DNA of 64,000 bases, from positions 1 to 64,000 of IMG/VR virus record IMGVR_UViG_3300023296_000646, one strand, 5' to 3'. Below are positions 3,145 through 52,849 of the stretch, one piece after another. The stretch is from a virus. The notes below the pieces were generated by a model. The model was given only the letters and a program-made list of their open reading frames with translations. It had not been told where the DNA came from and made no database searches. Positions within the stretch are counted from its first letter, which is position 1. Every line of letters begins with the position of its first letter. A program made the translations under genes and the position numbers.

Positions 3145-3153
3145 TATAAATAT
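3145..3153 (-). promoter_or_regulatory. Candidate late promoter ATATTTATA
   Basis: Recurrent intergenic 9-mer, about 30 nt upstream of ATG 3116. Confidence 0.6.
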
Positions 3154-3213
3154 ACCTTGCTAGTGAAACCTATTGTTTTATTTGTATCTTGACTTTTGTG
3201 CGTTGTAATTTGT

Positions 3214-26131: not shown

Positions 26132-26461
26132 TTATTTATTTTTTCCAGTGAATACACTATCTTTAGATGCGGCTACGATATAACGTAACTTATAATACTT
26201 CTTTTCACCAGGAGTTAGAAGTTTGTTCATGCGTTTCATCTTAGCTTGGGCATCAGCATACTCTTCAAAGATATTTTCTCCATCAGGAACTTTTATTCCA
26301 GTAAGATCTCTTACGTTACGTATATTCTTCTCACCGATTGAACCTCCTGATAAGACTACTGCGAATTTCGTAACTGAGTCTACTGCTTCATTTAGCGATC
26401 CTAATTTCATTCCAGATGCTATCTGTTCTGATAGAAGTTCTATTGTTGTTTTAGTTTTCAT
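26132..26461 (-). CDS. Putative capsid-internal protein, leader type A
   Basis: N-terminal MKTKTTIELLSEQIASGMKLGSLNE shared with 26534..26848. Confidence 0.6.
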   Translation of the reverse strand: MKTKTTIELLSEQIASGMKLGSLNEAVDSVTKFAVVLSGGSIGEKNIRNVRDLTGIKVPDGENIFEEYADAQAKMKRMNKLLTPGEKKYYKLRYIVAASKDSVFTGKNK

Positions 26462-26852
26462 ATTATTTAATATACGATTTAATTACTTTTACGATACCAT
26501 CCGTAAGATCTAGGAAATCTATGTAATCTAGCATTAGTACTCGTTCATTATCAATCGAAAGAATTCTTCAGAAAGATTACTTTCGTTAAATTTTGCATTT
26601 GGTCTGGTAGGGTGATCATTAGATAAAGTTATCTGGTACCAAACTGTACTAGAAGTATTACCATTAGAATGGTACACAATTAGTATTTTAGTAACTTTGA
26701 ATGTACCACCTAGTGAAGTCTTACCCTTGTCACCTACAGTAATTTCTCTAGGTACTCCTTTAGGGTATGCAGCTTCGTTAAACGATGTTAATCTCATACC
26801 ACCTGAAATTTGCTCTGATAGAAGTTCTATTGATGTTTTAGTTTTCATATTA
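26385..26852. repeat. Two copies of an 81-nt direct repeat (26385-26465 and 26772-26852) encoding leader A
   Basis: tctgatagaagttctattg[ta]tgttttagttttcatatta is present in both copies. Confidence 0.85.
26534..26848 (-). CDS. Putative capsid-internal protein, leader type A
   Basis: MKTKTSIELLSEQISGGMRLTSFNE; payload resembles that of 52246..52542. Confidence 0.6.
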   Translation of the reverse strand: MKTKTSIELLSEQISGGMRLTSFNEAAYPKGVPREITVGDKGKTSLGGTFKVTKILIVYHSNGNTSSTVWYQITLSNDHPTRPNAKFNESNLSEEFFRLIMNEY

Positions 26853-27521
26853 CTTGATTACCCAATCTTTTGTTTTACCATCAAAGATCACATTGAAATT
26901 TCTGAAATGTGATTTGAATTGTTTTATCTTTGAATGTGATATTACATCCCATTCGTCTTCTCCACCGTCATCTGTATAATATACTAGCACGTCACCAAAT
27001 TTAGATGCCATTCCAAGTAGATTTTTAAACCACGCAGTTTTTGCTAATTTCTTCACATATGCTACATTTATTTCTGATATTCGTTCAGGACCACCATGAA
27101 TAATTCTTGCTTCTTCTAACGCATCTGCATGTTCAGACAAATCCTTAATTTCAAAATACCTTCCTAGAACATGTCCCATATCATCAAACAGGGCGTTCAT
27201 TCTATTTTCCAATTTGATTGCATCCTGAGATGTTTTAATGAATTCCTCGTTGAACTTCTTAAGTTCCTTCATATTTCTTTTTATTGTAACTTGATCAAAC
27301 CAATCATCGGCCTCGTTCATTGTAAACGCTTCTGCCGCATTTGCAACTGTTCCAAGTTCTTTTGCAATTTCAGATAATGAATGGCTGCGTTCTAATCTTT
27401 TACCATATTCTGCATATGTTGCAACTAGACGTAAAAAGCCGTTTTTAGCTTCTTCGCTAAGTACTGGGCCTTCTATATCCTTTAGTTGGGCTTCTGTTAA
27501 AAAGAAATCTTTTAAGTTCAT
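26850..27521 (-). CDS. Head-associated hypothetical protein (probable start MNLKDFFLTE)
   Basis: Follows the protease; helical core plus a C-terminal extension after LSE/LEE/ISE sites. Confidence 0.55.
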   Translation of the reverse strand: MNLKDFFLTEAQLKDIEGPVLSEEAKNGFLRLVATYAEYGKRLERSHSLSEIAKELGTVANAAEAFTMNEADDWFDQVTIKRNMKELKKFNEEFIKTSQDAIKLENRMNALFDDMGHVLGRYFEIKDLSEHADALEEARIIHGGPERISEINVAYVKKLAKTAWFKNLLGMASKFGDVLVYYTDDGGEDEWDVISHSKIKQFKSHFRNFNVIFDGKTKDWVIK

Positions 27522-27538
27522 CTTAGTTTCTCTAATTG

Positions 27539-28153
27539 TTATTGTAGTTCCATTAAGATATTTCTCATAATATCTTGTGATCTGCAATATTCGTTACACA
27601 TATATCGTTCTTCATCAGTGATTCCAACAGATTCATTTACCGGGGTTAGAAACGCCCCATGCGTGCTTGGATTTGATACGAAATCAAATGCAATTAGTTC
27701 AAAGTCGTCCTGAACTTCTAGTGTTCCTTCACCTAGTGGGCGTACTGATCCCATTCCCCTGCTACTAATACCCAATGTGATATTACTTTCAAACAATTTC
27801 TTAAGAATGTTTCCGCTTGGGGTTGGGAGAACCTCAATGGTACCAATAACATCATCACCTTTAAAATGAATCTCCTTTACGTTATGTGATACGTTTTTTA
27901 AGTTTACAACAGATGATTCCGGATGATCTAATTCACCAAGCGCATTTCTGTTAGATACAAAATTTTGGTGATACTTACGTACCTCTCTTACGAGAATATC
28001 TTTTGGATATATTCTTCCATTTTGATTTTTTGCGTCTGCTCTTTGAAGAACTCCGTTTACAATAAACATTCCATTACCATCTTCAGTAATAGCTTCATTC
28101 ATTGACTGAACTTCAAATTGAAACGGCATATATTCTAATAGTAGTTTTTTCAT
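27539..28153 (-). CDS. gp21: Prohead core protease, T4 gp21 family
   Basis: GVLQRADAKNQNGRIYP, ALGELDHP, VSH, LGISSRGMGS, DFVSNPSTHGA. Confidence 0.95.
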   Translation of the reverse strand: MKKLLLEYMPFQFEVQSMNEAITEDGNGMFIVNGVLQRADAKNQNGRIYPKDILVREVRKYHQNFVSNRNALGELDHPESSVVNLKNVSHNVKEIHFKGDDVIGTIEVLPTPSGNILKKLFESNITLGISSRGMGSVRPLGEGTLEVQDDFELIAFDFVSNPSTHGAFLTPVNESVGITDEERYMCNEYCRSQDIMRNILMELQ

Positions 28154-28157
28154 AGTG

Positions 28158-28331
28158 TTAAACCCATGTCCCCCTTTTCTTAAACAAATCGAAAAATATT
28201 GCTGCTATCTCCTTCCTAATAAACTTACGAAGTACTTCAAAATCAGCTGAGTCTAATTCCTCATTCAATAGTGAGTTACTAGATAGTTCTTCTCTAACTA
28301 ATTGTTCTATTTGAGTTTTAGTTATTTTCAT
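28158..28331 (-). CDS. 57-aa head-associated protein (not in ORF track)
   Basis: MKITKTQIEQLVREELSSNSLLNEELDSADFEVLRKFIRKEIAAIFFDLFKKRGTWV fills the gap exactly. Confidence 0.7.
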   Translation of the reverse strand: MKITKTQIEQLVREELSSNSLLNEELDSADFEVLRKFIRKEIAAIFFDLFKKRGTWV

Positions 28332-29217
28332 GTGGATCTATTGTTGCTAATTTATCGTAATATTCTGGATCTTCAACTAAATGATCTAACGCAATTTCTG
28401 CAGCTATATTTAAATTAGGAGTATGTTCTAATTCTACTTTAGTGCCAATTTTAAGTTGGCTGTGAATTTGATCTAAAGAAACACCATGCATATCTGCAAT
28501 TTCTTGTGGATTTTTTCCACTTGAAACTCCACCAGGAATTTCTTCTTCAGTTACAACTTCTGACAATTTAATAGAATGTCCAGATCTTACATAAATTTTA
28601 CGATCTTCATCATCAGTTCCAAGCGTTTTAATCACCTTAGATAAATTTTGCAATTCCTTTCTAATTGCAACTAAAGGTTTTACAATTTTACCAACTCCTT
28701 TAAGTTTTGTATCTGCAGATCCGTTTTGACCCCTGACTCCGGCTAATATGTCATCAATTACAATACTAAGATCATTTCTAAGTTTTCCAAGATCTTTATA
28801 TGTTGCACCTTCGTTTAGTTCTGAAGATTCATTTAAATTTTTATCTAATTTGTCATCCCAGTCTATATCCTGTTGGTAGATAAACTTACCATTACTAGCT
28901 TCATACTTTTCTCTAGGTTTAACTATTTTACTTATCGTATATGTTTTAATTCTTCCAGATCTTATAGATCTAACTTTAACCTTATCTCCAACCTTTCTAG
29001 CCTTACCTACCTTGTATGATTCGCTTAGTTTTGAAGATTCCTTTTTAGAATTCCAACGTTCGTCTATATCTGTAAATAGCTTCTGTTGTGAGCTTTCTGG
29101 CATATTATTAAATTTATCAGATCCAACCTTATCTAAAATTTGCATAATAAAATTATGATAATCAGATTGTTCGTTTGCAATTTCTTTAACTATTTGCTTT
29201 AATTTGCCTTTATTCAT
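28318..29217 (-). CDS. Multi-segment putative capsid-internal protein with C-terminal DUF5661-like domain
   Basis: Segments separated by LSE/LNE; C-terminal QLKIGTKVELEHT...AAEIALDHLVEDPEYYDKL. Confidence 0.6.
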   Translation of the reverse strand: MNKGKLKQIVKEIANEQSDYHNFIMQILDKVGSDKFNNMPESSQQKLFTDIDERWNSKKESSKLSESYKVGKARKVGDKVKVRSIRSGRIKTYTISKIVKPREKYEASNGKFIYQQDIDWDDKLDKNLNESSELNEGATYKDLGKLRNDLSIVIDDILAGVRGQNGSADTKLKGVGKIVKPLVAIRKELQNLSKVIKTLGTDDEDRKIYVRSGHSIKLSEVVTEEEIPGGVSSGKNPQEIADMHGVSLDQIHSQLKIGTKVELEHTPNLNIAAEIALDHLVEDPEYYDKLATIDPHENN

Positions 29218-30011
29218 TATTTCATCTCCCTTAGATTTCTAGCTAGTTTAAGAATACGCTCACTAATCTTATTCATTTTAACATGAGTAGATTTCCAATA
29301 AGTATCTGGAGTTACTCCTGTTTCTGTTTTTAATTTTTTCAATTGTTTTACTGCGCGTTCTATTCTATATAACTTACCACTAATTTCCTTAATAGTCTTT
29401 CCAATTTTTTGTCTAGGAGATCGTGTTTCATCATTCTTAAGGGCTCTATACGAAACCTCGTTTAATTTAGATTTATTTTTCTTAGTTTGAGTTCCTATAA
29501 TTTTTTTTACGGCTCTGTATTCATCTACCATATCATTAAATCTGCGATATGATGATTTATCAATTACGTCCAATAACTTAAGGTCTATGATATTAGTTTG
29601 AAGCGCAAACATTGCGTTTGTTACCTTGCTGAAGTTATTGATATAATCTATATTACCTTTAGCTTCATTAATATTGTCTGCCTTGCCATGAATCTGCTTA
29701 GACACCGTTCCGTGAGCAATTCTAGCATCATCTGAATCTTTCTTTTTGCGACTCTTCTTTCCAGAAAATGCACCAGGAACATTATATCCTGCTACTGAAG
29801 CCTGAGCTGTCATTTCATCAACAGTTTCTTCATCAGTATCTTCTAATTGTCTTCTGACCATATACTTTGAAGTAATATCCTTTGCAGATTTTTCGTTTAA
29901 CCCAATAGATGCAAATAAACTCTCTACTGATTCTACAGTAGGAGTTTTTAATTTGGTATCTACCATTGAAAAAATCTTTTCTAGATTTTCCTTATTTACC
30001 TTTTGCGACAT
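29217..30011 (-). CDS. Head-associated hypothetical protein
   Basis: VDE/INE/LNE-delimited segments and a basic helical C-terminus. Confidence 0.55.
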   Translation of the reverse strand: MSQKVNKENLEKIFSMVDTKLKTPTVESVESLFASIGLNEKSAKDITSKYMVRRQLEDTDEETVDEMTAQASVAGYNVPGAFSGKKSRKKKDSDDARIAHGTVSKQIHGKADNINEAKGNIDYINNFSKVTNAMFALQTNIIDLKLLDVIDKSSYRRFNDMVDEYRAVKKIIGTQTKKNKSKLNEVSYRALKNDETRSPRQKIGKTIKEISGKLYRIERAVKQLKKLKTETGVTPDTYWKSTHVKMNKISERILKLARNLREMK

Positions 30012-30861
30012 GCTCTAACTCCTTTATAAGTTCATAAGCCATCATAACTGCGGTTACATGATTATCTTTAACAATTCTCCCGTGAGATGCAGTCTGTAGT
30101 TGCTTAATAGTTTCTTCTAATTTTATTATAGTTACACTATCATCAATCCTCTTTGATATAGCCTTTAAAACTAATTGAATTTTTGGAACTTCTGATTTTA
30201 TGTACTCACTTAACGAATTAGTATTTGATACGTTATTGATGTATTCCCTAAGAAGTTTCTTCTGACGACTGTCAAATGATTTGTATTTATCGTTGAATTT
30301 TTTAAGAAATACATACTGAGATAATTTTCTAGTATCAGCATCTTCTTTTGAAAACGCTTCCATAAGTGGATCTATTTTTGTCACCTTAGCAGACGAATCA
30401 CTTATAATAGATTCTATAATAGTTGTCTTAGATACAAATACATCCTTAGGTCTATATAATTTTGTACTAGTTGCGTTTTCAAACAACTTGTAAATTGATG
30501 CTAGCACTTTATATGAGGTAACCTGAGATCTAAAGAATTTATCAATATCATACGTATTCTTTATTTCCTTAATCAGTTCAAATTTTTCTAATCCTAATCT
30601 ACGTTCACTAAGTCTTTTACGAGCTCCTAGAACTGCATCTAAAATTCGTTCTGCCTTGATTTCAGATATAACTCGCTTTGAAAGAATCAAGTGATACATT
30701 TGAAGTTCTTTCCCAAGCTCAGTGCCTTTACCAAAATACTTAGATAAAATACCTTCTGCCAATGATTCTCTTCCACCAATTATATCTGCAGTAATTTGGC
30801 GCACAATCATTTCATACAAAAAACCAGTATTTTTATATTTTGAATGTCTTAGTTTTCTCAT
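29992..30861 (-). CDS. Hypothetical protein between portal and protease
   Basis: HSKYKNTGFLYE N-terminus, helical, with its own upstream promoter motif. Confidence 0.6.
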   Translation of the reverse strand: MRKLRHSKYKNTGFLYEMIVRQITADIIGGRESLAEGILSKYFGKGTELGKELQMYHLILSKRVISEIKAERILDAVLGARKRLSERRLGLEKFELIKEIKNTYDIDKFFRSQVTSYKVLASIYKLFENATSTKLYRPKDVFVSKTTIIESIISDSSAKVTKIDPLMEAFSKEDADTRKLSQYVFLKKFNDKYKSFDSRQKKLLREYINNVSNTNSLSEYIKSEVPKIQLVLKAISKRIDDSVTIIKLEETIKQLQTASHGRIVKDNHVTAVMMAYELIKELEHVAKGK

Positions 30862-30894
30862 AATTGTTTCTTACTTAATGCGTGCTAATTCTTT

Positions 30895-30903
30895 AATAAA
30901 TAT
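30895..30903 (-). promoter_or_regulatory. Candidate late promoter variant ATATTTATT
   Basis: About 34 nt upstream of ATG 30861. Confidence 0.5.
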
Positions 30904-30926
30904 CACCTTTGTTTCGATTACGATTA

Positions 30927-32711
30927 TTATATAATATTGCTCTCATCTAATAGTCCTTTAGAATTAAGATTAGCGCTATTCATTCCACCAATCAATCTTT
31001 TAATTTCATTCATTGAAATTGAATTTCTACCTATAGGGTCTCTTCCTAGTACATGCTTATCTGTAGCATACTTAGTTTGATTTCCTCTAGGTCTTCCACC
31101 CTGTTTATATTTTTCATCGTTTTCAAAATCTTCTGCATCTTCATCTTCTCCGGAGAATCCAGATACATCATCGCTATCTTCATCTTCTCCGTTAAATGGA
31201 TCTATTGCCTGACCACCAACTACATGTTGACCAGATTTTGCAGGATCATTTCCATCAGAATCTATCTGATCCAATCTATATTTGAATTTTGCATCGTTCA
31301 CTAATCTCAATCGTTCTCTAACAATATCGTCTTCAGATAGTTTGAAAATAGTTTCATAAATCCAATCTACTGACAACAGCTGTCCGGATTTAATATCATC
31401 ACCAAGTCGAACCTTTTCTTGCCAAATTCTAATTTGCTCCTGTTCGTACACGGTAGAAGACATCGCTAATTCCAATGAGAAGTCTATTAACTCCTTATCC
31501 GTGTATCCGTTTGCATATAAATGAACTATTGCTATTTTTGAAAGTTCAGATACAACAATTCTCTGAACCTTTCTAATACTTCTAGCAAATCTCATATCCT
31601 CTTGAGCTAATGTACCCTTTCCACTTGTATCTTCTTCATAGCCAAGATATGCTCTAGGAATTTTAAGACCTGCAAATAATTTCTTTTGTAGGTATTCAAT
31701 ATCCTCTACTGTTTGATATTCCAATCCAGGAAGATTTTCAATTGATGTGCCATCCTTAGTACCACGAACTGGAAGGTAGAAATCTTCTAACAGGTTTTGA
31801 ATGTTAAATTTTAAATTGTATTCACCTGTATTGGGATCCATCAGCGATGCCTTTTTAGTCTTTTGCATAAGACGCTGCATATATCCTTCTACATCCTTAG
31901 GAGGAATATTACCAATATCTACTTTATACATTCTACGTTCAGGAGCTCTAACGATTCTATGAACCATCATTGCGTCTTCCATAAGTTTTATTTGTTTCCA
32001 AATTCTACGTATGTTTTCAACAATAGCCTTTCCGTATGGAAGGAAATTTGAATCTGTACCCAATCTAAAATGGGCCATTTCGTAATCATCGTATGTAGTT
32101 GCTTGATTACTTGAATATGTTGTTGCTCCTGATATATCATGAATAAATCTAACAGCCTTAGGATCTTCTATATCGTATCCTTCTTCTCGTATTATCTCGT
32201 ATACTGAAAGTGGAATTACATCTATAACTCCAATTCCTTCTTCTATTTCTAGTTTTAAAAACAGATCACCATACTTACATAAATTTCTAATCCATGCAGA
32301 TAAATTGAAATTGATGTTTAGAATATCATAAAATAGATTATGAAGAATTTGCTTCACATCGTTATTAGATGTGGTAATTTTTAAGATTTGACCAAACTCA
32401 TCTTCCAATGAAGATTCTTCTGCATACATATCTATTGCTGATGCAATAATTGGATCAGCATCCATTCCTTCATAATCCCTGAATAGGTGGTATCTGGTTG
32501 CTTGAAATACTCCAGTTTGATCCCTACCTTGGGCGCCAGGAGTTCTATATATGGATGCATGTCTTTGCTTCCAACTACCCTTAGGCATTAGCTGACTACT
32601 ATTTGCGTCAAATACTTTTATTCCCTTTCCACTGCCCTTGCTTACTACACGAACTACAGATCCGTTTGAGAATAATCTTTTTAATCTTGCATTAAAGCTT
32701 TTGTTTGCCAT
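30927..32711 (-). CDS. gp20: Portal protein, T4 gp20 family
   Basis: QIKLMEDAMMVHRIVRAPERRMYKVDIGNIP, EDFYLPVRG, IENLPG, DIEYLQKKLFAGLKIP. Confidence 0.95.
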   Translation of the reverse strand: MANKSFNARLKRLFSNGSVVRVVSKGSGKGIKVFDANSSQLMPKGSWKQRHASIYRTPGAQGRDQTGVFQATRYHLFRDYEGMDADPIIASAIDMYAEESSLEDEFGQILKITTSNNDVKQILHNLFYDILNINFNLSAWIRNLCKYGDLFLKLEIEEGIGVIDVIPLSVYEIIREEGYDIEDPKAVRFIHDISGATTYSSNQATTYDDYEMAHFRLGTDSNFLPYGKAIVENIRRIWKQIKLMEDAMMVHRIVRAPERRMYKVDIGNIPPKDVEGYMQRLMQKTKKASLMDPNTGEYNLKFNIQNLLEDFYLPVRGTKDGTSIENLPGLEYQTVEDIEYLQKKLFAGLKIPRAYLGYEEDTSGKGTLAQEDMRFARSIRKVQRIVVSELSKIAIVHLYANGYTDKELIDFSLELAMSSTVYEQEQIRIWQEKVRLGDDIKSGQLLSVDWIYETIFKLSEDDIVRERLRLVNDAKFKYRLDQIDSDGNDPAKSGQHVVGGQAIDPFNGEDEDSDDVSGFSGEDEDAEDFENDEKYKQGGRPRGNQTKYATDKHVLGRDPIGRNSISMNEIKRLIGGMNSANLNSKGLLDESNII

Positions 32712-32736
32712 TGTAATACTAGGTTGTTTGTCAGTT

Positions 32737-32745
32737 TATAAATAT
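32737..32745 (-). promoter_or_regulatory. Candidate late promoter ATATTTATA
   Basis: About 26 nt upstream of the portal ATG. Confidence 0.6.
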
Positions 32746-32771
32746 ATGCACAAGTTAATTAGCCTAAAATA

Positions 32772-34813: not shown

Positions 34814-34814
34814 A

Positions 34815-35742: not shown

Positions 35743-35756
35743 AACCTATAACCTTT

Positions 35757-38171: not shown

Positions 38172-38192
38172 TTTATGTACTCTCGTTTCTCA

Positions 38193-38201
38193 TATAAATA
38201 T
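38193..38201 (-). promoter_or_regulatory. Candidate late promoter ATATTTATA
   Basis: About 22 nt upstream of ATG 38171. Confidence 0.6.
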
Positions 38202-38212
38202 ACGTGTAACTA

Positions 38213-47200: not shown

Positions 47201-47239
47201 TAAATTTTGCTTTTCTACTATTCTCTTAATTCTTGGCAT
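38213..47239 (-). CDS. Giant tail fibre/spike protein (3008 aa)
   Basis: Repeated beta domains, coiled-coil repeat stalk, C-terminal SKTAGSFMIDHPDP...HSFVESP chaperone-type domain. Confidence 0.75.
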   Translation of the reverse strand: MPRIKRIVEKQNLDQYVVFKEDRSVGSRYFAVTDLPQTLTGGKNGFLITGTRELELGTTVKVEITDVDGNPVYYEVAQGRPQYYEGRSKVVSVWVYDDTPIGQGKITILGELRKYRNESGDLIDIPDEWKDNYNVRWEYPIFINKSLPNETRVRFTSRPIISVTENIVNLKKRVPTIIQNSGSLSGSAGFPKAGHDWSRFNGNTEYKLTISGSTFSELMVPSEGIITVSSLNQTYTTKLKKILSDTEALATTPYFITSSNSIHASSYKEVIADFSDVSFISAYTSESFETDPSNDGTASFATVTITNLETFSGDVHRIKLYRRPIGSTVETDYELVQDQVIEAREELKDDSKTGTEYRTGTFRTQATIDSYWNTSSFFITASNNDSTLFQSVHLTSSATVKEFTSGSTTFPATYTFTTSSASEFLTQILTYESRSHAGTGTFTGSVYYESESISSGATQSFYVSASTEISTPSFIANNGSDNTIFILAEVSSSLAGTSQYTGSTYAYSSSVKNEYGFNNSVETPYVTGSEYNVSFSTIGLGEGSLEVFLSGSSFNNTTGSLGIIDDNHSYGQLIGSVKVGGVRTTLDFSENFEPTYNGTGVLNFVIRGAEWYIGDVSLKEYHETNFSPNQFVTTIQIPTTINDQTYEFKSEFFDVNSNLIDITVVSDKQSFYGGSLFGKSVNFSANRPSFTFNTPDISGSFVLTANPIAQAITFTTSTRGLVTGSITYASQAFDDSGSLIPSASYETSSYVTFLSNATHSVATEANGTGGNYLGTTGSFFVFSANDNVSSGTTFTLSGSSAGVTASIDSTGLYTASLHDDTDSGTVTLSASIADMLYEHTFTVSKDKSGGSEKLIMFASPSPIEYQESGSTIPTSDTVTFTIQQESLSGTIISGDFTVKKNDGTNITTSSLVGSVVGGTGNQTFTSSFYGNNTSSLTLQRSDFPLTASVNRDSITDTCYLFSTFGADVYPGTMTDLTDSGGTMTVANFTGSDNGYTVGNVEITASSEGKYDAVSINTSTDGLSGKQVFIRPVFGTVLKNKDGGDPDNTGNLEIEIVKFVDGRLVSSSVALGNVRLYSASVELNTSFNGIGDGTRLADVRYNAQISGSAITGSLLLTAEDTGSGILWDSITLADLQDGLPAGYVTANTRVFKRDPNTSTYNINSIGLTGSFYIPNKSDGSGTTYNRYVSIDPNWNGSADQMSWSYDTGGTSDIEVIGNDLDGGSVSEDAYATTTDLSLTFTYTDPTYANTMTTEETFYITVEGLDGSGSIDTLAHTILPISGTYFSTNPNSGLHQPAYLEFKTQTTTSGSVTDIISGSTSYLRKQSDNSNITASLPGGTVYRITKDDIDSLEVFEWYSGSALAVVDTISVSDITDGTNSVSYLIRPFFGTVLKNKDGGDPSNAGNLEIQLVKVSGSQEYILNSGDIKLYSASVELVGSMNGISAGTATGSPYNGSGILPYHAQISGSAITGSLTIIAKSGSVVADTITLADLQDGKPAGYISTDSGRTLIRSGSNEYTPSTLGITGSFYIPNQSDGTGVVYSRYVGIDPNWTGTVDQMSWSYEPGGSTDIAVTVSDVDGNSVSEDSYANTKDLSVTFTYVDPTYGTSLTTEETFHVVSDGTDGIAAPSGILNLDDNNRVWQYSPNTGVYTPTDVTNGITASFYIGDTVTATRGWPITISGTNLQTGSENTGLRTDDWANVSIDVDGGGTSNMTIAFTSASITIKEQFTIVSEPRNAFGLSFSPESFVVPAGPTGDVISGLPNTVDVYLYVDGELETDYTTWTWASSSANMSALVATDKETIAVDSFTPSTLETALVSVTASKAYSDYTTTLQGSFTVTKAYQGRQGPGVVYIGDYDDLLANWPLQNDDVRRDIVTHGSTYYYYTGSDGDLKSTISSNNGHPTGSNTTDYWGTFTNFAAVATDILLAQDAYIGKVLNIGTNEVSGEANIALNGGIDSPYISLGQSVQNYAQSGFYLGSGSVSGETLKMSLSGSNGHMIWNGSNLSVKGAITVTGGNVPTTSSISGAFDTVSQSFATSITDQGISITNSYASSSAYSQSFSTDITAQGISITDSFASSSGYSQSFQADLTAQGLTLTSVSQSNEGYSQSFQTDITAQGISITNSYASSSAYSSSAATSITAQGITITANANNVSGAFDGTSSSLATSITAQGISITNSYASSSAYSQSLSTDITAQGISITDSFASSSGYSSSFSTDITAQGISITNSYASSSAYSSSAATSITAQGISITDSFASSSAYSSSAATTVTAQGISITLNETGITDSYASSSLYSSSLADNITSGSNNVSGAFDAVSGSLAGGITDSYASSSLYSSSLADNITSGSNNVSGAFDEVSGSLADDVTNSYASSSAYSSSLAGDLTSASLSIFTTNQGFVWRDAAPTGTGLSLTATELGFHVGSTWTTYMNNDGNFYLNGTGGSGNGLSWNSGTNVLAVSGTIYAIGGTIGGVAVYNDSIQAPNFSLDSSGSLVAKNASFTGFVSASSGEVGGFTLSGTALTSVGGKITLDGSNDSISVRDSNGAARFLANTALTLPDPTAGETLTETSTTTTHAVSWANTGISSSIYVHPVTFSPAPTLTGTYTVSATLGAHASRTVYCGDSAFDGNGIASATVKLQIFNGTTLIAESGTRTITSYSVDQGWNTTVSWTSHKFTVDADLTSGITTYTAQWHIEESGGWFSAKPLSTVPDSSFNLAGETISATLELAKTTINGGGFQAVAAADAYLRVQDSTPAVLVVGQLSVTGSQEISTDLTVGGLTTTDHLTVGSGHSFGASTSNKIVARGSITSEESINALVNGSNNVLAQFLLRDSEGTSNSTGLAIAAVSGSGLAANKVYIAPVYSGSLNFGSEIYYDWTNVRWVVEPSLHVAGTLSKTAGSFMIDHPDPEKTDTHTLWHSFVESPTAGDNIYRFTVDVYDGSGWTLIPDYFHYLNTDVQIWVNAVDHFGRAYGKITPDKNAVRVYADTDGEYNVLVIATRKDEAAIKYWNGVEREKIIE
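40110..41180 (-). repeat. Coding tandem repeats: 75-nt (25-aa) and 120-nt (40-aa) units
   Basis: ITAQGISITNSYASSSAYSQSFSTD units; SGSNNVSGAFD..SGSLA units at a 120-nt period. Confidence 0.9.
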
Positions 47240-47285
47240 ATAAAAACTCCGGACTGTTACAGTTAAATATGCACAGCTCGGAGTT
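47240..47285 (-). promoter_or_regulatory. Hairpin covering the RBS of the 3008-aa gene, with a promoter-like motif in its loop; also terminator-like
   Basis: Minus strand AACTCCG-ag-CTGT-gcATATTTAACtgta-ACAG-tc-CGGAGTT-tttat-ATG. Confidence 0.55.
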
Positions 47286-47324
47286 ATTATTTTTGAGTAT
47301 TTTAATAAATTTTACATTATTTCA

Positions 47325-47333
47325 ATACTTATA
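47325..47333 (+). promoter_or_regulatory. Candidate late promoter ATACTTATA on plus strand
   Basis: 18 nt before ATG 47352; same motif as for the minus-strand genes, in flipped orientation. Confidence 0.6.
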
Positions 47334-47351
47334 AGAAATAGGTTATTACAT

Positions 47352-47525
47352 ATGTCTAGAAATACAGATTACAAAATGCTTCAGATACCACTAGAAGCAC
47401 ATTCAGTTCTAAAACGATATTGTTCAGAAAACGACTACAAAATGGGAAAGTTTGTTGGTAAACTAATTGTTAGGGAATTGGGAAAATTAAAGCCAGATGG
47501 AAAGATGTTACCTACGGGTAATTGA
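47352..47525 (+). CDS. 57-aa ribbon-helix-helix-like DNA-binding protein (not in ORF track)
   Basis: MSRNTDYKMLQIPLEAHSVLKRYCSENDYKMGKFVGKLIVRELGKLKPDGKMLPTGN; strand-helix-helix pattern; AGGT upstream. Confidence 0.65.
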   Translation: MSRNTDYKMLQIPLEAHSVLKRYCSENDYKMGKFVGKLIVRELGKLKPDGKMLPTGN

Positions 47526-50500
47526 TGTAACTAAATCCATCTTCCTTTTTTATCTCAATTAATTTATCTACCACATCTCTCATAACATCTAAGTGGGATA
47601 TTACGATTACAAATTCGAACTGACTTCTTAGATATTCAAACATCGTAAACATTGATGTAAGATTTTCTGAATCTAAATTTCCAAATCCTTCATCAACTAC
47701 TAGGAAGTTTGACCTAGGTAAGCTACACACATTCATTGTAGCCACTCTCATACACAAATCAATAATGAACTGTTCCATTCCACTAGATAGTTCCACTAGC
47801 CAACTTGATCCATCTTCATTGATTTTACCAACAATATCCTTTCCGTCAACCTCTAATGATATTGTAAATTCTTGGGTTTGTCCTAATATGTTGTTTACTT
47901 CGTTTTCAATTGCAGGAAGAGTTTTAGCAATCAGCTCAGATGGAATTCCGTCTCGCTTAGTTGCAGTTAAATAATATTCGTAAACTGCATATTCATTTTC
48001 TAATTCTCTAAGCTGCTCAATTTGTTCTAACGTAGATTCAATTCTAGTTTCTAATGCTCGCAGATTACCAATTGCAGAAGTGTGAACTCTATATTTAGAA
48101 TCATATGTTTCAGATAATGCTGAAAGTTCTTTGTTCAATAACGAAAGTTCAAGTTCAATTTTTGTATTTTTATCAATTTGATCTTTATTATCCTTGAATC
48201 TTTGTATGTTTTCAGCTATAGGTAATAATCTATTTTGTCTATTTTGAATTTCACCACTTAGTCTAGCAACCCTATTTTCTGATTCTGATTTCGCTAATTC
48301 TAGTTTTGATACTTCACGAACTAATCTAATTGCGTTTGTGTACTCTACATAAATTGTGTTATCAACATTCAATTCTGACATTTCCTTATTGATAATTCTA
48401 GCAGATTCAATTAGCGACTTCATATTTGATTTGTCGTTAGATATTTCTTCCTCTAATTGAGATACTAATTTAATATGACCTTTTGCGTTGAAAACGCAAA
48501 ATCCACAATCTTCATCATAGTCGTATTCATCCTTTACTGAAGACAATCTTGCCTTTTTAGAAATGATAGCAGTTTTTAATTCAACTGCCTTTCCCTTTAT
48601 TGTTCTAACCTTAGTTGATAATTCCTCATTTCTATCATGTCTAAACGTAATTTCATCTACATCAACTTTATCTAATTTTTTAGATTTCCTTTTGAATTGT
48701 TTTGTATGTTCAGATAGTTTAGAATTTAATCCTTCTAAATCTATTTCAAGTTTAGATATTTCATATTCAAATGTAGCTAGCGTATCTTCTAATTTTTCTA
48801 AATCATTTCCATGTACATCTACCTTTACCATTGATGCTTCCTTAGTAGAAATTTTATCTCTAAGTTTTATGACATCCTTTTCAATTGCTTTAACTTCTAC
48901 CTTAGTGGTATCAAACTCTGATTGAACACCGTCTAACTCTTCATCCAACTCAGTTAAAATTTCATCATGATCTACCTTCTTAAGCAATTTTACTTGAGCA
49001 GCTCGTTCTTTAGTATCTGTAGAAGCTAATTTATTAAGTCTATCATAAATGCCAATTCCCATAAACTGAGACAAGAGATCTTTACGCTGAGACTGTTTCT
49101 TTTTAATAAATGTAGAATTATTACCCTGAAGTGATATTGTTGTTGCTATGAAATCATCATACGTTCCAATATGGTTTCGTATGTTAGCATTGGTACCATT
49201 TCTATCAGCTCCATTTAGAGGAATTCTAACCCCATCTTCCAACTTATAAAAACTCACAGGAACCCGTAACGATTTTGCACCTTGAGTTGCTACCCTTTCA
49301 ATAACATATTCAGTATCTGCAATTTGAAATTTAAATTCACATTCAAATCCATCAGATTTTCTGTTTTTAATATGATCTGCTTTAAATGTCTTAGATGATT
49401 TATCAAACAGACAAAATAACATCACATCCAATACAGATGATTTACCACTTCTATTTGGCGCAAACAGTCCATATAATCCAGCTAAATCCGTAAACTCTAA
49501 TGAATTTCCAAGACCATATGAAAACATATTATCGAATTTTAACGATATCGGTTTCCATACAACATTTCGAATAATCTCTTCTTCTGAAAGTCTACTATTT
49601 AAATCTGCGTTAATTTTAGCAATCTCAGAAACGGTATCCATATCTAATGAAAATTTTCTATCCAAATAATCTTTTAGTAACTCTAGCTGATATTCCACGT
49701 TAGTAACATCTCCGAATGTCAATGTGTTATCAGTTTTACCGTCTCTAGAAAATACGTCTAGCCTATTTATCGTATATGACTTTATGTTATGCTTCTTTCG
49801 AAATTCAACTAACGCTAATTTTAAATCTGCAGATGTTGTGTTTTGAACTTGAATCCTAAGTCTAGGATTCTTAGGCATATCGTCTACATTTGGAATTACA
49901 CCATTATTAATTTCTAACGTATAATACCCATAGTCGTTTACAATATCTTGAAAATCTGCATCTTCTAATTTGCCATCTGTAAAGTTCCATTGCATAAATC
50001 CATGGCCATCTAATGCCTCACCATGATTTTGCTGAACTAGAGATCCTGCATATGCAATTAGTGGGTTATCTGATTCTGGAATAATTTGACGCTTATGAAT
50101 ATCTCCACATAAAACTAGTGGACATCCTTCAAATGTTTCCGGAGTTGTATCCGTATCATATAATACGAATCCGGTATCCGTTTCAGATGCATCTACTGGA
50201 CCATGAAATAATCCTATATTATATCTACCGTCGTCTGGGGGCGTTGGCCAATCCTTTGGATCTTCAAAAATGCCATAATGAACCAAATTGATATCTGCTA
50301 ACCTATATACTCCTGAATCCTTCAAATAATGAATATTTGGATTATTCATGTTATCAATTATGGGAGATAGCGCATCTAGTCGATTGGCGTTATTTTGATT
50401 GCAATCATGGTTGCCTGGTATTAATACAGTTGGGTATCTACTTGAACATTCAGATAAAAAATTAGAGATCATCTGGATCAATTCTGGTGACATCTCAGTT

Positions 50501-50697
50501 TTTGCGTGAGCAATATCACCAGCTATATAAATAATTGACTTTTTAGACGCCCGTTCTGGCTGATCAATCTCTTCTAGAAAGTTTTTAAATACTTGCCTAT
50601 ATTCTTCATGTCTCTTAACATTTCGAATATGTAAATCTGCTATGTGAAAAATTCTGTGTAGTTTCTTAAATCCTACATCAATGGTTTCATAATTCAT
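47512..50697 (-). CDS. Fused Mre11/SbcD nuclease - Rad50/SbcC ATPase (gp47-gp46-like)
   Basis: ADLH, AGD, GNHD, FHG, GDIH, then NRSGKSS, coiled coil with CGFC hook, LSSGME, VVDEGFGNLD, ISH. Confidence 0.93.
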   Translation of the reverse strand: MNYETIDVGFKKLHRIFHIADLHIRNVKRHEEYRQVFKNFLEEIDQPERASKKSIIYIAGDIAHAKTEMSPELIQMISNFLSECSSRYPTVLIPGNHDCNQNNANRLDALSPIIDNMNNPNIHYLKDSGVYRLADINLVHYGIFEDPKDWPTPPDDGRYNIGLFHGPVDASETDTGFVLYDTDTTPETFEGCPLVLCGDIHKRQIIPESDNPLIAYAGSLVQQNHGEALDGHGFMQWNFTDGKLEDADFQDIVNDYGYYTLEINNGVIPNVDDMPKNPRLRIQVQNTTSADLKLALVEFRKKHNIKSYTINRLDVFSRDGKTDNTLTFGDVTNVEYQLELLKDYLDRKFSLDMDTVSEIAKINADLNSRLSEEEIIRNVVWKPISLKFDNMFSYGLGNSLEFTDLAGLYGLFAPNRSGKSSVLDVMLFCLFDKSSKTFKADHIKNRKSDGFECEFKFQIADTEYVIERVATQGAKSLRVPVSFYKLEDGVRIPLNGADRNGTNANIRNHIGTYDDFIATTISLQGNNSTFIKKKQSQRKDLLSQFMGIGIYDRLNKLASTDTKERAAQVKLLKKVDHDEILTELDEELDGVQSEFDTTKVEVKAIEKDVIKLRDKISTKEASMVKVDVHGNDLEKLEDTLATFEYEISKLEIDLEGLNSKLSEHTKQFKRKSKKLDKVDVDEITFRHDRNEELSTKVRTIKGKAVELKTAIISKKARLSSVKDEYDYDEDCGFCVFNAKGHIKLVSQLEEEISNDKSNMKSLIESARIINKEMSELNVDNTIYVEYTNAIRLVREVSKLELAKSESENRVARLSGEIQNRQNRLLPIAENIQRFKDNKDQIDKNTKIELELSLLNKELSALSETYDSKYRVHTSAIGNLRALETRIESTLEQIEQLRELENEYAVYEYYLTATKRDGIPSELIAKTLPAIENEVNNILGQTQEFTISLEVDGKDIVGKINEDGSSWLVELSSGMEQFIIDLCMRVATMNVCSLPRSNFLVVDEGFGNLDSENLTSMFTMFEYLRSQFEFVIVISHLDVMRDVVDKLIEIKKEDGFSYINYP

Positions 50698-51622
50698 ATG
50701 CTATACGTTGCTTCAATAATGTTTCAAATCCCATTTCAATTGAGTCAGTCTCTAATATTCCGCTGAATCCCAATTCACTTGGATCCTTTCCCTGAATATC
50801 TAACAGTCTTACACTTATGCCCTGACTCATGTATTTCTTTGCTATCTTTAGAGCATCTGCTCTTCCATCTAAATCTAGCGCTATGTTTATTCTAGAAACC
50901 CTATTACCCATAATTTTACTATGAAGGGAGTTAGATATAAATTTACCCAATAGCGGAATTGCATTGGACTTAATTGCCAACGCATCAAACACGCCTTCTA
51001 CTAATGTAATGGGCTCATTCCAATTTATATGGAGATCAAATAGAATTGTATCTCGTTCTGCTGGTGGATTTTTGTATGCAATAGGATCATCTTTGTAATA
51101 TGCCCTTGCTACAAAATAATTTAAACTAGCAGAATCATCGTACGACGGAACTATCAATCTATTTGAATATCTTCCTTCTGCACAATAACCAATGTTATGT
51201 TTAATAACATCTTCTCTAGTTATTCCTCTTAACTTTGCATAATGTAATGCATTTCTAAATTCTATTGAGTCTTCAAATTTGAGTAGAGATTTAAATTCCT
51301 TTGGAAGACGAAGGATTGGAATTTCCTTATCGTTCTTATCCTTCTTTCTATACGTTATGTATTCAGGATCTCTAGTTAAATCGGATACTAGTTTTATCGT
51401 ATGAGAATCTGCATTTGCCTTCTTAACCAATGAGTATAAACTCTTTCCTCTAGAATTACATACCCAACAATGCCATACTCCTCTATCAATAGAGACCTGC
51501 AATTTCAACTTTCTATGGTTACAAAACGGACATTTAAAGGATTCTTCGTTATCTGCTTTACTGTGTCTGCTAGGACCTAATACAGAATTTAGAATTCTTA
51601 ATAACTCACTTACGTTTCTCAT
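50687..51622 (-). CDS. DNA primase (Zn finger plus Toprim)
   Basis: CPFC...WHCWVC, LVEGVFDA, ALDLDG, KDPSE. Confidence 0.88.
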   Translation of the reverse strand: MRNVSELLRILNSVLGPSRHSKADNEESFKCPFCNHRKLKLQVSIDRGVWHCWVCNSRGKSLYSLVKKANADSHTIKLVSDLTRDPEYITYRKKDKNDKEIPILRLPKEFKSLLKFEDSIEFRNALHYAKLRGITREDVIKHNIGYCAEGRYSNRLIVPSYDDSASLNYFVARAYYKDDPIAYKNPPAERDTILFDLHINWNEPITLVEGVFDALAIKSNAIPLLGKFISNSLHSKIMGNRVSRINIALDLDGRADALKIAKKYMSQGISVRLLDIQGKDPSELGFSGILETDSIEMGFETLLKQRIAYEL

Positions 51623-52025
51623 TTATCCAATCGATCGGAATTGTTCCTTGAGCCCATTGAAAACCGTTCTTCTCAGCCCACATTGCGTAAGTAGTTTTGC
51701 TACTCTTGCTTATTGTGTTTTTTGCTCTTTGGAAGACGAATCTTATATCTTTAGTTGGGTTTTGTTCCCTAACTAAAATCATTTTTTTACGATCTGCTGC
51801 CTTTAATCGACCCTTTGCTTCTATAACAATACCATTTGGAAGAATGAAATCTGGTGTATATGTGTGTGGTATTGCAGGAGTTATGTACGCTAACTTAATA
51901 GTTTCGTATTCAATTGGAATTCGAATAACTTTTAAATTTTCTGCAATTGTACGTTCAAAATTACTACGGTACGGATCCGTCTTTACCCTTTTTGATCTTT
52001 TAAAAGCCAAATGAAATTCCACCAC
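51606..52025 (-). CDS. T7 endonuclease I-like Holliday junction resolvase
   Basis: YRSNFE, YE, YTPDFILPNGIVIEAKG, DRKKM, DIRFVFQ, YAMWAEKNGF. Confidence 0.9.
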   Translation of the reverse strand: MVEFHLAFKRSKRVKTDPYRSNFERTIAENLKVIRIPIEYETIKLAYITPAIPHTYTPDFILPNGIVIEAKGRLKAADRKKMILVREQNPTKDIRFVFQRAKNTISKSSKTTYAMWAEKNGFQWAQGTIPIDWINEKRK

Positions 52026-52233
52026 CTAAAGATCCACGATTGTTACGTGCTCTTAAATTTAATGTTGCCCTACCTCTTGATCTTCTGCCTCCACTACTAA
52101 ACGCAGATAGTCTAATATTGGCACTAGATCCTCTACCTCTTCTAGAAAGACTTGTACGAATAGATCCATTTCTGCTTCTTGAAGAAAATGTTCCACTTAT
52201 ACTTAATCGCGTTCTGCGTCTTCTGTGTGACAT
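52000..52233 (-). CDS. 77-aa Arg/Ser/Gly-rich basic protein
   Basis: 19 Arg and no D, E or K; upstream TAGAGAACACTA also precedes the neighbouring gene. Confidence 0.6.
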   Translation of the reverse strand: MSHRRRRTRLSISGTFSSRSRNGSIRTSLSRRGRGSSANIRLSAFSSGGRRSRGRATLNLRARNNRGSLGGGISFGF

Positions 52234-52245
52234 TAGTGTTCTCTA

Positions 52246-52542
52246 TTAGTATGTATCTCTAATCAAATCAAGGAATGTTTGCCCTGCGTTTGATTCTTTA
52301 AATTTGACGCCGTCCTTTAATACGATTTCATAAGTAACCGATATTCCAACTCCTTCACGACCTTGTCTATAAAAATTAGATTTTAAAATTTTAACTTTAC
52401 CACCCTTTCCGGTAGGGTATGTTTTGCCAACTTCATATTGATCGTATCCTGCATCTTTAGCTTCTGAAAGATTATTGCGCTTAAATTTGGCACTTTCATT
52501 TAAATCATTCATTAGCGTTCTTAATTTCATTGCATCTGTCAT
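52246..52542 (-). CDS. Putative capsid-internal protein, leader type B
   Basis: MTDAMKLRTLMNDLNES...LSEAK. Confidence 0.6.
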   Translation of the reverse strand: MTDAMKLRTLMNDLNESAKFKRNNLSEAKDAGYDQYEVGKTYPTGKGGKVKILKSNFYRQGREGVGISVTYEIVLKDGVKFKESNAGQTFLDLIRDTY

Positions 52543-52550
52543 AGTGTTCT

Positions 52551-52820
52551 CTAGTATAATTTACCGTATATGCCACGGATTTCACTTTCAACTTTTTTCG
52601 CTTGTGCTATTGCCGCAATGAGAGCCTTTTCTGATTTAGAATTGCCGTCTCCATAATCATCTTCAATACCGCTTATTAATTTTGTAAGTAAACTAATTTG
52701 TGTTTCTACAAGACTTTTAAATCTTTTTAGATTTGCAGAACCTTTTGCTTCGTCTAATGTAGGCTTAACGCTTTCATTTAAACCATCCATTAATTTTCGC
52801 ATTTTATGTGCATCTGTCAT
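52551..52820 (-). CDS. Putative capsid-internal protein, leader type B
   Basis: MTDAHKMRKLMDGLNES...LDEAK with a helical payload. Confidence 0.6.
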   Translation of the reverse strand: MTDAHKMRKLMDGLNESVKPTLDEAKGSANLKRFKSLVETQISLLTKLISGIEDDYGDGNSKSEKALIAAIAQAKKVESEIRGIYGKLY

Positions 52821-52837: not shown

Positions 52838-52846
52838 TATAAATAT
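52838..52846 (-). promoter_or_regulatory. Candidate late promoter ATATTTATA
   Basis: About 18 nt upstream of ATG 52820, which has an AGGAG RBS. Confidence 0.6.
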
Positions 52847-52849
52847 ACG

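What the first reader, a model, noticed from the sequence alone, without database searches (positions are those of the whole stretch)
26132..52820. Interchangeable leader plus payload cassettes: candidate modular capsid-cargo delivery system
Seen: two leader families. Leader A (MKTKT.IELLSEQI..GM.L.S[LF]NE|A, an 81-nt DNA duplicate) heads 26132..26461 and 26534..26848. Leader B (MTDA.K.R.LM..LNES...L[SD]E|AK) heads 52246..52542 and 52551..52820. Within each pair the similarity stops at the xNE/xSE site and the payloads differ. Yet the payload of 26534..26848 (VG..KT..GG.FKV.K...V.YQITL...KFNESN..EEF..LI..EY) aligns by eye with that of 52246..52542 (VG..PT..GG.VKI.K...V.YEIVL...KFKESN..QTF..LI..TY), so one payload occurs behind both leaders, 26 kb apart. 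Established: T4 internal proteins carry an N-terminal capsid-targeting sequence removed by gp21, which cleaves after Glu in L/I-X-E contexts, and they are injected (IPI blocks GmrSD). Inference: the leaders are portable packaging tags recombined onto variable injected effectors, possibly anti-defence proteins.
Basis: partly seen in the sequence, partly recalled or inferred. Interest (0 to 1): 0.85.

Follow-up and report, generated by a model that had tools for sequence, protein, structure and literature searches.

The report
T4-style capsid-cargo leaders on small proteins
An uncultured salt-lake phage related to T4 puts two kinds of short, probably cleavable N-terminal tags on four small basic proteins, much as T4 does with the internal proteins it loads into its capsid; this is a new example of a known trick, and neither packaging nor cleavage has been tested.

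Summary
A1/A2 share only a 25-aa leader (z=18). B1/B2 share only a 24-27-aa leader (z=11.5). The A2 and B1 payloads are homologous (SW 66 against 24±4.5 in shuffles, 0/5000). No other pair of payloads is alike.

The window is a distant T4-like phage with a gp23 capsid protein, an S77 gp21-type protease and an acidic scaffold. The A pair lies in the variable slot between protease and scaffold. The B pair is a lineage-specific insertion behind a late-promoter-like motif.

All leaders end in h-x-E|A, T4's gp21 motif, in a predicted disordered linker. They are under purifying selection (pN/pS about 0.35). The mature parts are 65-84 aa and basic (pI 9.1-9.7), like T4 IPI*/IPII*.

Comparison supports modularity. 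A1's payload family occurs behind at least 8 different leaders, all ending in h-x-E. It also occurs inside large head proteins and fused to a protease. A close relative carries leader B on an A2-like payload. In relatives, one other leader heads 14 payload clusters.

Best reading: capsid-targeting propeptides on internal head proteins, the known T4 CTS/IP principle. Packaging, cleavage, injection and anti-defence function are untested, and the payload folds match nothing. The scan has noted similar leaders on other T4-like phage DNA. Verdict: a new member of a known kind, of moderate interest.

The parts
26132..26461 (-). A1: a 109-aa protein. Leader A is codons 1-25 (nt 26387-26461) and ends LNE|A. 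The payload is 84 aa, basic (pI 9.7), with the GGSIGEK...PGEKKYY domain.
   Evidence: Homologs with other leaders. AF2 model: helix 6-18, disordered 21-28, folded alpha/beta domain.
26534..26848 (-). A2: a 104-aa protein. Leader A is codons 1-25 (nt 26774-26848) and ends FNE|A. The payload is 79 aa, a beta-sheet plus a C-terminal helix, pI 9.1.
   Evidence: Payload relatives found: only B1 and P0003.
52246..52542 (-). B1: a 98-aa protein. Leader B is codons 1-27 (nt 52462-52542), with LNE|S at residue 16 and LSE|A at residue 27. The 71-aa payload is homologous to that of A2.
   Evidence: A 99% identical copy (P0002) lies on another contig.
52551..52820 (-). B2: an 89-aa protein. Leader B is codons 1-24 (nt 52749-52820), with LNE|S at residue 16 and LDE|A at residue 24. 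The 65-aa payload is an orphan that looks helical by eye, pI 9.3.
52838..52847 (-). TATATTTATA (GTATATTTATA with the preceding G at 52848), a late-promoter-like motif 17 nt upstream of the B2 start.
   Evidence: The same motif lies 17-28 nt upstream of the portal gene (start 32711), the 804-aa gene (38171), the 1038-aa gene (3116) and two genes beyond the window. All copies are on the minus strand in the gaps between the minus-strand genes.
27539..28153 (-). Prohead protease of the gp21 type, the presumed processing enzyme.
   Evidence: Pfam Peptidase_S77, E=9.9e-28.
24729..25739 (-). Acidic scaffold protein, gp22-like. The real start is probably MSDLLKE. It is the presumed docking partner of the leaders.
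   Evidence: Position, composition and the conserved N-terminus KDLLKEAIADAK in relatives. No family hit.
23105..24715 (-). Major capsid protein of the gp23 family. The predicted maturation site QLIDE|T after residue 63 aligns with T4 gp23 LTE|A after residue 65.
   Evidence: Pfam Gp23, E=5e-76. Alignment with T4 gp23 and 20 relatives.
26850..27521 (-). A 223-aa conserved head-module protein with a short T4-CTS-like leader, MNLKDFFLTE|A.
   Evidence: Its homologs in relatives carry other short leaders ending in h-x-E.
28158..28331 (-). A 57-aa protein just upstream of the protease, in the position of T4 gp67/gp68. Its N-terminus MKITKTQIEQLVREELSSNSLLNE|E weakly resembles leader A.
   Evidence: similarity z of about 3.

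Best explanation
A1, A2, B1 and B2 are small basic internal head proteins of a distant T4-like phage. Each is made with an N-terminal propeptide of 24-27 residues: an amphipathic helix, then a flexible linker that ends in h-x-E|A.

By analogy with the T4 capsid-targeting sequence, the propeptide docks the protein onto the scaffold core while the prohead assembles. The gp21-type protease (27539-28153) then cuts after the Glu, possibly at both h-x-E sites. This leaves 65-84-residue basic proteins in the head, to leave with the DNA.

The tag and the payload evolve as separable modules. Recombination at or near the cleavage site puts the same tag on unrelated payloads and different tags on the same payload. 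The genes sit in two variable slots: between protease and scaffold, and in a lineage-specific insertion after a structural gene.

Shown: the mosaic structure, the T4-type head module, the motif, selection on the leader and modularity across relatives. Inferred: docking, cleavage, presence in the virion and ejection. What the payloads do is unknown; DNA-associated filler or anti-defence inhibitor are both guesses.
For: - Head module: Gp23 capsid protein and S77 protease, with T4-like relatives. The capsid maturation site h-x-E aligns with T4's known LTE|A site across 20 relatives.
- Mosaic: the statistics are, and DNA identity falls from 81% to random at the junction. With pS=0.39 in the leader, divergence in place could not have erased the payload DNA similarity. 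The payloads were therefore replaced.
- Selection on the leader peptide: pN/pS is 0.13/0.39 for A and 0.24/0.67 for B.
- All five leaders, P0003 included, end in [LF]-x-E|A. AF2 places this site in a low-confidence linker between a helix and a folded domain.
- A1 payload family: the stand-alone homologs carry at least 8 different N-terminal extensions. Of 22 distinct members with upstream sequence, 19 have h-x-E within 14 residues of the domain start, against a background of 34%. The domain also lies inside large proteins between portal and protease, and is fused to the C-terminus of a protease (L098).
- P0003, from a near-identical relative (its B1 is 99% identical), has leader B joined to a payload 46% identical to A2.
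- Relatives: leader C heads 24 proteins in 14 payload clusters. A payload 76-84% identical occurs behind either leader C or a short MKIADLILE leader.
- T4 control: IPI, IPII and IPIII share only their leaders. IPI's leader is 19 aa ending ITE|A, and IPII has two candidate sites by motif.
- The mature parts have pI 9.1-9.7, like IPI*/IPII*, and no leader has a hydrophobic run longer than 3 residues.
- The B cassette is missing at the same junction in L107 and L109 and lies behind a late-promoter-like motif.
- T4 facts come from PMC9026906, PMC3012670 and PMC5694885.
Against: - There is no experimental datum for this phage or any close relative. No cultured relative carries these proteins, and no proteome was found.
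- The leaders are not homologous to the T4 CTS and are more than twice as long as its 10 residues.
- h-x-E is a short motif, present in 34% of random 16-residue windows.
- The payloads have further internal h-x-E sites.
- Basic charge is weak evidence: 32% of the small ORFs here have pI above 9.
- B2 is an orphan known only from this phage.
- The motif in front of A1 lies only 3 nt from its ATG, so no promoter of its own is evident for the A pair.
Confidence: 0.65

Rival explanations
1. The proteins are packaged but are not cargo. They would be expendable prohead-core or scaffold accessory proteins, like T4 gp67/gp68, that help build or size the core and are then degraded and expelled. In that case nothing is delivered to the host.
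For: The A pair lies inside the head operon beside the protease and scaffold. Leader A weakly resembles the N-terminus of the 57-aa protein in the gp67/68 position. The payloads contain further h-x-E sites. The A1 domain is fused to a protease and embedded in large head-module proteins in other phages.
Against: The mature parts are basic and predicted to fold, like T4 IPs. T4's core protein gp67 has an acidic Asp/Glu-rich tail and several L/I-x-E motifs, and reviews report that gp67 and gp68 are cut into fragments. The genes are missing from most close relatives, which does not fit a needed assembly part.
Confidence: 0.15
2. There is no tag function. The pairs are ordinary tandem duplicates whose 5' ends stay alike for reasons at the DNA or RNA level (translation start region, regulatory RNA, gene conversion). 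A2 and B1 are simply old full-length paralogs.
For: The first 39 nt of A1/A2, counted from -4, are 97% identical. B1 and B2 share the GAGAAC ribosome-site region. Leaders A and B share about 35% identity and one layout, so A2, B1 and P0003 may be collinear homologs.
Against: Synonymous changes outnumber non-synonymous ones per site about threefold in both leaders, so the peptide is what is kept. Unrelated leaders on A1-family homologs all end in h-x-E just before the domain, which an RNA-level explanation does not predict. The payload DNA is at random identity while leader pS is only 0.39.
Confidence: 0.08
3. The leaders address some other machine than the prohead: a recognition sequence for a modifying enzyme (as in RiPP precursors or radical-SAM tags), a secretion or membrane signal, or an oligomerisation helix.
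For: A conserved leader with a variable core is also the hallmark of RiPP precursors.
Against: No radical-SAM gene lies on the contig, which is only about 51% complete. The payloads are 65-84-residue predicted folded domains, not short Cys/Ser/Thr-rich cores. The leaders have no hydrophobic stretch longer than 3 residues. The context is the head module.
Confidence: 0.07

Closest known systems
Phage T4 internal proteins IPI, IPII and IPIII (and Alt), with the capsid-targeting sequence processed by gp21 (Mullaney & Black 1996, as cited in PMC9026906; polymorphic IP genes, Repoila et al. 1994, as cited in PMC3012670)
   Same: Both are T4-type head modules with an S77 protease. In both, several small basic proteins (T4 IPI* is 76 aa with pI 9.0; here 65-84 aa with pI 9.1-9.7) share only an N-terminal leader that ends in L/I-x-E|A. 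In both there is a tandem pair plus a distant locus carrying a diverged leader. In both the payloads are unrelated and poorly conserved between related phages. IPI's 19-aa leader and IPII's two candidate sites (by motif) match the longer two-site layout seen here.
   Different: The leaders here are 24-27 aa and show no sequence homology to MKTYQEFIAE beyond the first residues MKT. The payloads are new families. One locus lies inside the head operon. Nothing has been tested by experiment.
Propeptides of phiKZ, 201phi2-1 and SPN3US inner-head and ejection proteins (PMC5694885)
   Same: These too have propeptides with several cleavage sites after Glu, N-termini conserved between otherwise diverged paralogs (SPN3US gp53/gp54), and a gp21-related protease.
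   Different: Those propeptides are often longer than 100 residues, the proteins are large, and the phages are jumbo phages with an inner body. Here the proteins are about 100 aa in a T4-like genome.
CTS-like leaders that this scan noted earlier on other uncultured marine T4-like phages (for example the MIKLKDLLKE tag, e1-3862018; also e1-5862810, e1-6033753)
   Same: The logic is the same: a lineage-specific leader ending in h-x-E on many unrelated head-cluster proteins, with modules swapped at the motif. The MIKLK.LL.E leader also turns up in loci L006-L008 fetched here.
   Different: Leaders A and B are longer, have two sites, and are so far confined to this phage and one near-identical relative. 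Those notes are unpublished AI notes, not independent evidence.

Membership tests
T4-type CTS / internal protein system | The phage has a T4-type prohead: gp23-family capsid protein, gp21-family (S77) protease and a scaffold core | tested here: met
   Pfam Gp23 E=5e-76 and Peptidase_S77 E=1e-27. An acidic gp22-like ORF lies next to the capsid gene.
T4-type CTS / internal protein system | A short N-terminal propeptide shared by otherwise unrelated proteins of one phage | tested here: met
   Leader pairs z=18 and z=11.5; their payloads z below 1.1. The T4 control shows the same pattern.
T4-type CTS / internal protein system | The propeptide ends in the gp21 motif L/I-x-E, often at a Glu-Ala bond | tested here: met
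   LNE|A, FNE|A, LSE|A and LDE|A, plus LNE|A in P0003. This is the motif only; cutting was not tested.
T4-type CTS / internal protein system | Sequence homology of the leader to the T4 CTS MKTYQEFIAE | tested here: not met
   By eye, against the T4 leaders, only the first residues (MKT) and the hydrophobic-x-Glu ending agree. Length is 24-27 aa against 10-19 aa. No alignment statistic was run against the T4 CTS.
T4-type CTS / internal protein system | Proteolytic removal of the leader by the prohead protease | not testable with these tools
   Indirect only: the site lies in a predicted disordered linker, and the capsid protein's site is conserved at T4's position.
T4-type CTS / internal protein system | Presence in the virion and ejection with the DNA | not testable with these tools
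   No cultured relative and no proteome.
T4-type CTS / internal protein system | Payloads variable between related phages while the head core genes are conserved | tested here: met
   None of the four occurs in 80 loci whose protease is 50-65% identical. The protease-scaffold slot differs from locus to locus. The B cassette is absent in L107 and L109.
T4-type CTS / internal protein system | Late expression together with the structural genes | tested here: inconclusive
   B2 lies behind the same GTATATTTATA motif as the portal gene. The A pair lies inside the head gene run. There are no RNA data.
RiPP-type precursor (conserved leader, variable core) | A short modified core peptide and a neighbouring modifying enzyme | tested here: not met
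   The payloads are 65-84-aa predicted folded domains. No radical-SAM gene is on the contig, but the contig is only about half complete.
Sec/Tat signal peptide | A hydrophobic core of about 10 or more residues after a charged N-region | tested here: not met
   The longest hydrophobic run in any leader is 3 residues, and GRAVY is -0.2 to -0.9.

The most novel reading that the evidence does not exclude
Leaders A and B may not be redundant copies of one tag but two different addresses within one phage. They could differ in timing (inside the head operon against an own late promoter), in docking partner or in copy number, so that the phage could dose or place different cargo separately. The cargo (A1 domain, A2/B1 beta domain, B2 helical hairpin) would then be injected inhibitors of host defence, swapped between strains as cassettes. 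P0003 would be a live example of re-addressing a payload.
Probability: 0.15. Interest if true: 0.65.

Novelty: new member of a known kind. Interest (0 to 1): 0.4.

Why it matters
If the leaders are capsid-targeting propeptides, they mark which proteins of uncultured T4-like phages are carried in the virion and delivered with the DNA. That gives a sequence-only way to list candidate first-minute effectors, anti-defence proteins included.

The comparison also shows how such cargo evolves. Tag and payload recombine at the protease site. The same domain can stand alone behind a tag, be strung into large head proteins, or be fused to the protease.

For T4 biology this extends a principle described for T-even phages to a lineage whose capsid protein is only about 25% identical to T4's. 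The principle itself is not new, and the payload functions remain unknown.

Tried and rejected
- **Family and fold searches.** Pfam and PHROGs gave nothing for the four proteins. Foldseek and VIA-align on the AF2 models of A2 (pLDDT 68) and A1 (pLDDT 74) gave no match better than E=0.07 or Z=3.9. T4 IPI* did not appear in the rows shown. The ESM Atlas gave no lead for A1.
- **Homolog searches.** tblastn of A2 and B1 against 50,697 phage records found nothing. A word-based search with A2 found only A2 itself. A leader-B profile found only B1, B2 and P0003.
- **Weak repeat-protein hits.** The weaker hits of the payload profile to large proteins (9 listed in all; the two read, P0004 and P0007, are repeat proteins) were judged to be beta-strand composition matches and were not pursued.
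- **Sequencing runs.** Laying four salt-lake runs on the B locus showed almost only low-depth fragments identical to the window, with no replaced cassette. One contig diverges at 52797, inside leader B2, and remains unexplained. The half shares of words in those runs reflect low coverage, not a variant.
- **A1 domain in close relatives.** It was sought in the 80 protease-centred loci and is absent there.
- **Motif upstream of A1.** The variant lies 3 nt from the ATG and was not accepted as a promoter.
- **Papers.** Repoila 1994 and Rifat 2008 are not held in the library. They are cited only through the reviews.
Full report
**What the window is.** All genes in the region lie on the minus strand. 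Pfam finds a gp23-family major capsid protein (23105-24715, E=5e-76) and a gp21-type S77 prohead protease (27539-28153, E=1e-27). The capsid protein's best matches among sequenced phages are about 50% identical: an uncultured phage, Microcystis phage Mel-JY01 and Flavobacterium phage immuto. T4-group phages are about 25% identical.

The gene order along the direction of transcription is terminase, portal, three unknown genes, a 57-aa gene, protease, a 223-aa gene, A2, A1, a bS21 homolog, an acidic scaffold-like gene, then the capsid gene. The contig is 94,980 bp, about half complete, and comes from a salt-lake metagenome.

- A1 and A2 match only over residues 1-26 (20/26 identical, E=1e-11).
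- B1 and B2 match only over residues 1-29/26 (E=8e-7).
- In shuffle tests the leader pairs score z=18.4 and z=11.5.
- The A2 and B1 payloads score SW 66 against 24.0±4.5 (z=9.4, 0 of 5000 shuffles).
- The other five payload pairs are at chance.
- At DNA level leader A is 63/78 identical, and the next 26 codons are 22/78 identical, which is random. The "81-nt duplicate" is therefore a diverged copy, not an exact one.

**The junction is a recombination joint, and the peptide is under selection.** Synonymous divergence within leader A is 0.39 per site, against 0.13 non-synonymous. For leader B the figures are 0.67 and 0.24. This has two consequences:
- The amino-acid sequence of the leaders is being kept, which argues against a purely DNA- or RNA-level reason for the likeness.
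- At that modest synonymous distance, a payload that merely drifted would still show DNA similarity. It shows none, so the payloads were exchanged.

**The leaders look like T4-type propeptides.**
- All end in [LF]-x-E|A: LNE|A, FNE|A, LSE|A and LDE|A. Each has an earlier h-x-E at residue 12 or 16.
- T4 gp21 cuts after Glu in L/I-x-E, and a Glu-Ala bond was the first site described. Propeptides with several sites are known from the jumbo phages phiKZ and SPN3US (PMC9026906, PMC5694885).
- I fetched the T4 proteins as a control. IPI starts MKTFKEFTSTTTPVSTITE|A, IPII MKTYQEFIAE|ARVGAGKLE|A and IPIII MKTYQEFIAE|A, and beyond the leaders the three are unrelated.
- The capsid protein's N-terminus aligns with T4 gp23 so that T4's known LTE|A site falls on QLIDE|T here and on [IV]-x-E in 20 relatives. 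The specificity of the protease is therefore probably retained.
- AF2 models put a helix at residues 6-13 (A2) or 6-18 (A1), then a low-confidence linker that holds the site, then a folded domain.
- The leaders have no hydrophobic run longer than 3 residues, so they are not signal peptides.
- The mature parts would be 65-84 aa with pI 9.1-9.7, close to T4 IPI* (76 aa, pI 9.0) and IPII* (90 aa, pI 9.6). This is mild support only, since 32% of small ORFs on this contig also have pI above 9.

**Same payload behind many leaders.**
- A1's payload (GGSIGEK...KRMNKLLSPGEKKYY) has homologs at 44-57% identity in other metagenomes. Their N-termini differ: MKNFTELIDE|A, MKRFTQYIEE|A, MRIINE|A, MRIIKE|S, a long MIRMKHVKLFEAFINE|AMNPSVAE|TAVNE|A, or none.
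- Twenty-four IMG/VR loci add further leaders.
- Of 22 distinct members with sequence upstream of the domain, 19 have h-x-E within 14 residues of the domain start, against 34% of random windows. The members are not independent, but all 12 stand-alone proteins with an N-terminal extension show it.
- The same domain also sits inside 324-864-aa proteins beside the portal and protease genes. In L098 it is fused to the C-terminus of the protease itself, after an LLE|G site.
- It is absent from the 80 loci closest to this phage, so its distribution is patchy.

**Same leader on many payloads.** The four proteins have no homologs in 80 loci whose protease is 50-65% identical. The slot between protease and scaffold differs from locus to locus, yet the same logic recurs there:
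- A leader M..NF[DN]L[KR]KFLTE|NKLT.NSR.L.E| heads 24 proteins in 15 loci. These fall into 14 payload clusters at BLASTP 1e-3.
- Locus L006 has four proteins with MKLSEFK.LIRE|E... and different payloads.
- One payload, 76-84% identical across loci, sits behind the long leader in L069/L076 and behind a 9-aa MKIADLILE| leader in L053 and others.
- A payload 95% identical to a stand-alone tagged protein (L055) forms the C-terminal domain of a 676-aa protein just upstream of the protease in L039.

**The A2/B1 payload and P0003.** A profile of the two payloads, scored against 1.84 billion representative proteins, finds only three credible members: A2, a 99% identical copy of B1 (P0002) and one new protein, P0003. 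P0003 and P0002 each lie on an ENA contig of 82,066 bp, probably the same contig of a near-identical phage.

P0003 carries leader B (75-89% identical to B2 and B1). Its payload is closer to A2 (46% identity, SW 159, with the same DHPxxP insertion) than to B1 (SW 77). So either a leader or a payload has been exchanged between close relatives. I could not obtain the contig, so I cannot say which.

A caution applies here. Leaders A and B share about 35% identity in a collinear alignment, weak but non-random similarity (z=2.6-3.6), and one layout. A2 and B1 may therefore be old full-length paralogs. The A1/A2 pair, the B1/B2 pair, the A1 family and the leader-C cases carry that argument.

**The B locus is an insertion.**
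- In L109 the homolog of the 305-aa structural-looking protein is followed after 26 nt by endonuclease I, primase and Mre11-Rad50, as here but without B2, B1 or the Arg-rich ORF.
- In L107 a GIY-YIG-like ORF (by its sequence motif, not a family search) takes that place.
- B2 is preceded at 17 nt by GTATATTTATA. The same motif stands 17-28 nt before the portal gene, two large virion-type genes and two genes beyond the window, always on the minus strand in the gaps between the minus-strand genes. This looks like a late promoter, as T4's TATAAATA is, but there are no RNA data.

**What is not shown.**
- Packaging, cleavage and ejection are inferred from T4.
- No payload has a family or fold match, so "anti-defence" is a guess.
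- A real rival is that these are expendable core proteins like gp67/gp68.
- No radical-SAM or other modifying enzyme was seen, but the contig is incomplete.

[quoted passage not shown] The finding is that principle in a distant, uncultured lineage, with longer lineage-specific two-site leaders and new payload families.

Earlier notes of this scan report similar leaders on other marine T4-like phage DNA. These are unchecked notes, but they show that the pattern is common. I rate the finding a new member of a known kind, with interest 0.4.

Noticed in passing
window 25865-26086 (-): A 73-aa homolog of ribosomal protein bS21 (phrog_21469, E=3e-5) sits inside the head operon between the cargo genes and the scaffold gene. 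ORFs that look similar by eye occupy the same slot in several relatives (for example L005 12338-12595, L016 11185-11415). In L084 a tblastn match to the window's bS21 lies next to an A1-type gene.
   Followed up: partly
window 52000-52233 (-): A 77-aa ORF very rich in Arg and Ser, protamine-like, lies directly after B1 and overlaps the start of the endonuclease I gene. It belongs to the same lineage-specific insertion and is absent in L107 and L109. It might be another DNA-binding internal protein, or it might not be a gene.
   Followed up: partly
window 52838-52848, 38193-38203, 32737-32746, 3145-3155 (all -); also 68590 and 89748 on the contig: GTATATTTATA (ATATATTTATA before the portal gene) lies 17-28 nt upstream of the starts of B2, the 804-aa gene, the portal gene, the 1038-aa gene and two genes beyond the window. 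It is a candidate late promoter, comparable to T4's TATAAATA.
   Followed up: partly
L098 5323-6231 (+): In an IMG/VR contig the A1-type domain (GGQVGQK...PGEKKYY) is fused in frame to the C-terminus of the S77 prohead protease, after an LLE|G site.
   Followed up: partly
L039 7957-9987; L055 4683-5090; L059 3223-3630: A payload 95% identical occurs both as a stand-alone leader-tagged 135-aa protein and as the C-terminal domain of a 676-aa protein just upstream of the protease. Modules therefore move between tagged small proteins and large multi-domain head proteins.
   Followed up: partly
window 52797 (inside leader B2): One contig of run X4 stops matching the window at 52797 and runs on for about 255 letters of unlike sequence. 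It may come from a variant with a different 5' end of this gene. Not resolved.
   Followed up: no
window 52850-53767 and 53777-54970 (-): Two adjacent Ser/Thr/Gly-rich proteins share a C-terminal motif (LAVAKL..P.K......V..LDF or a variant) and have no family match. They are probably paralogous structural proteins.
   Followed up: no
window 3214-5389 (-): Three tandem paralogs of about 240 aa share the N-terminus M...GGG.I.TDGL.LALD.SS and are alike along their whole length. They are ordinary paralogs, unlike the leader-only pairs.
   Followed up: no
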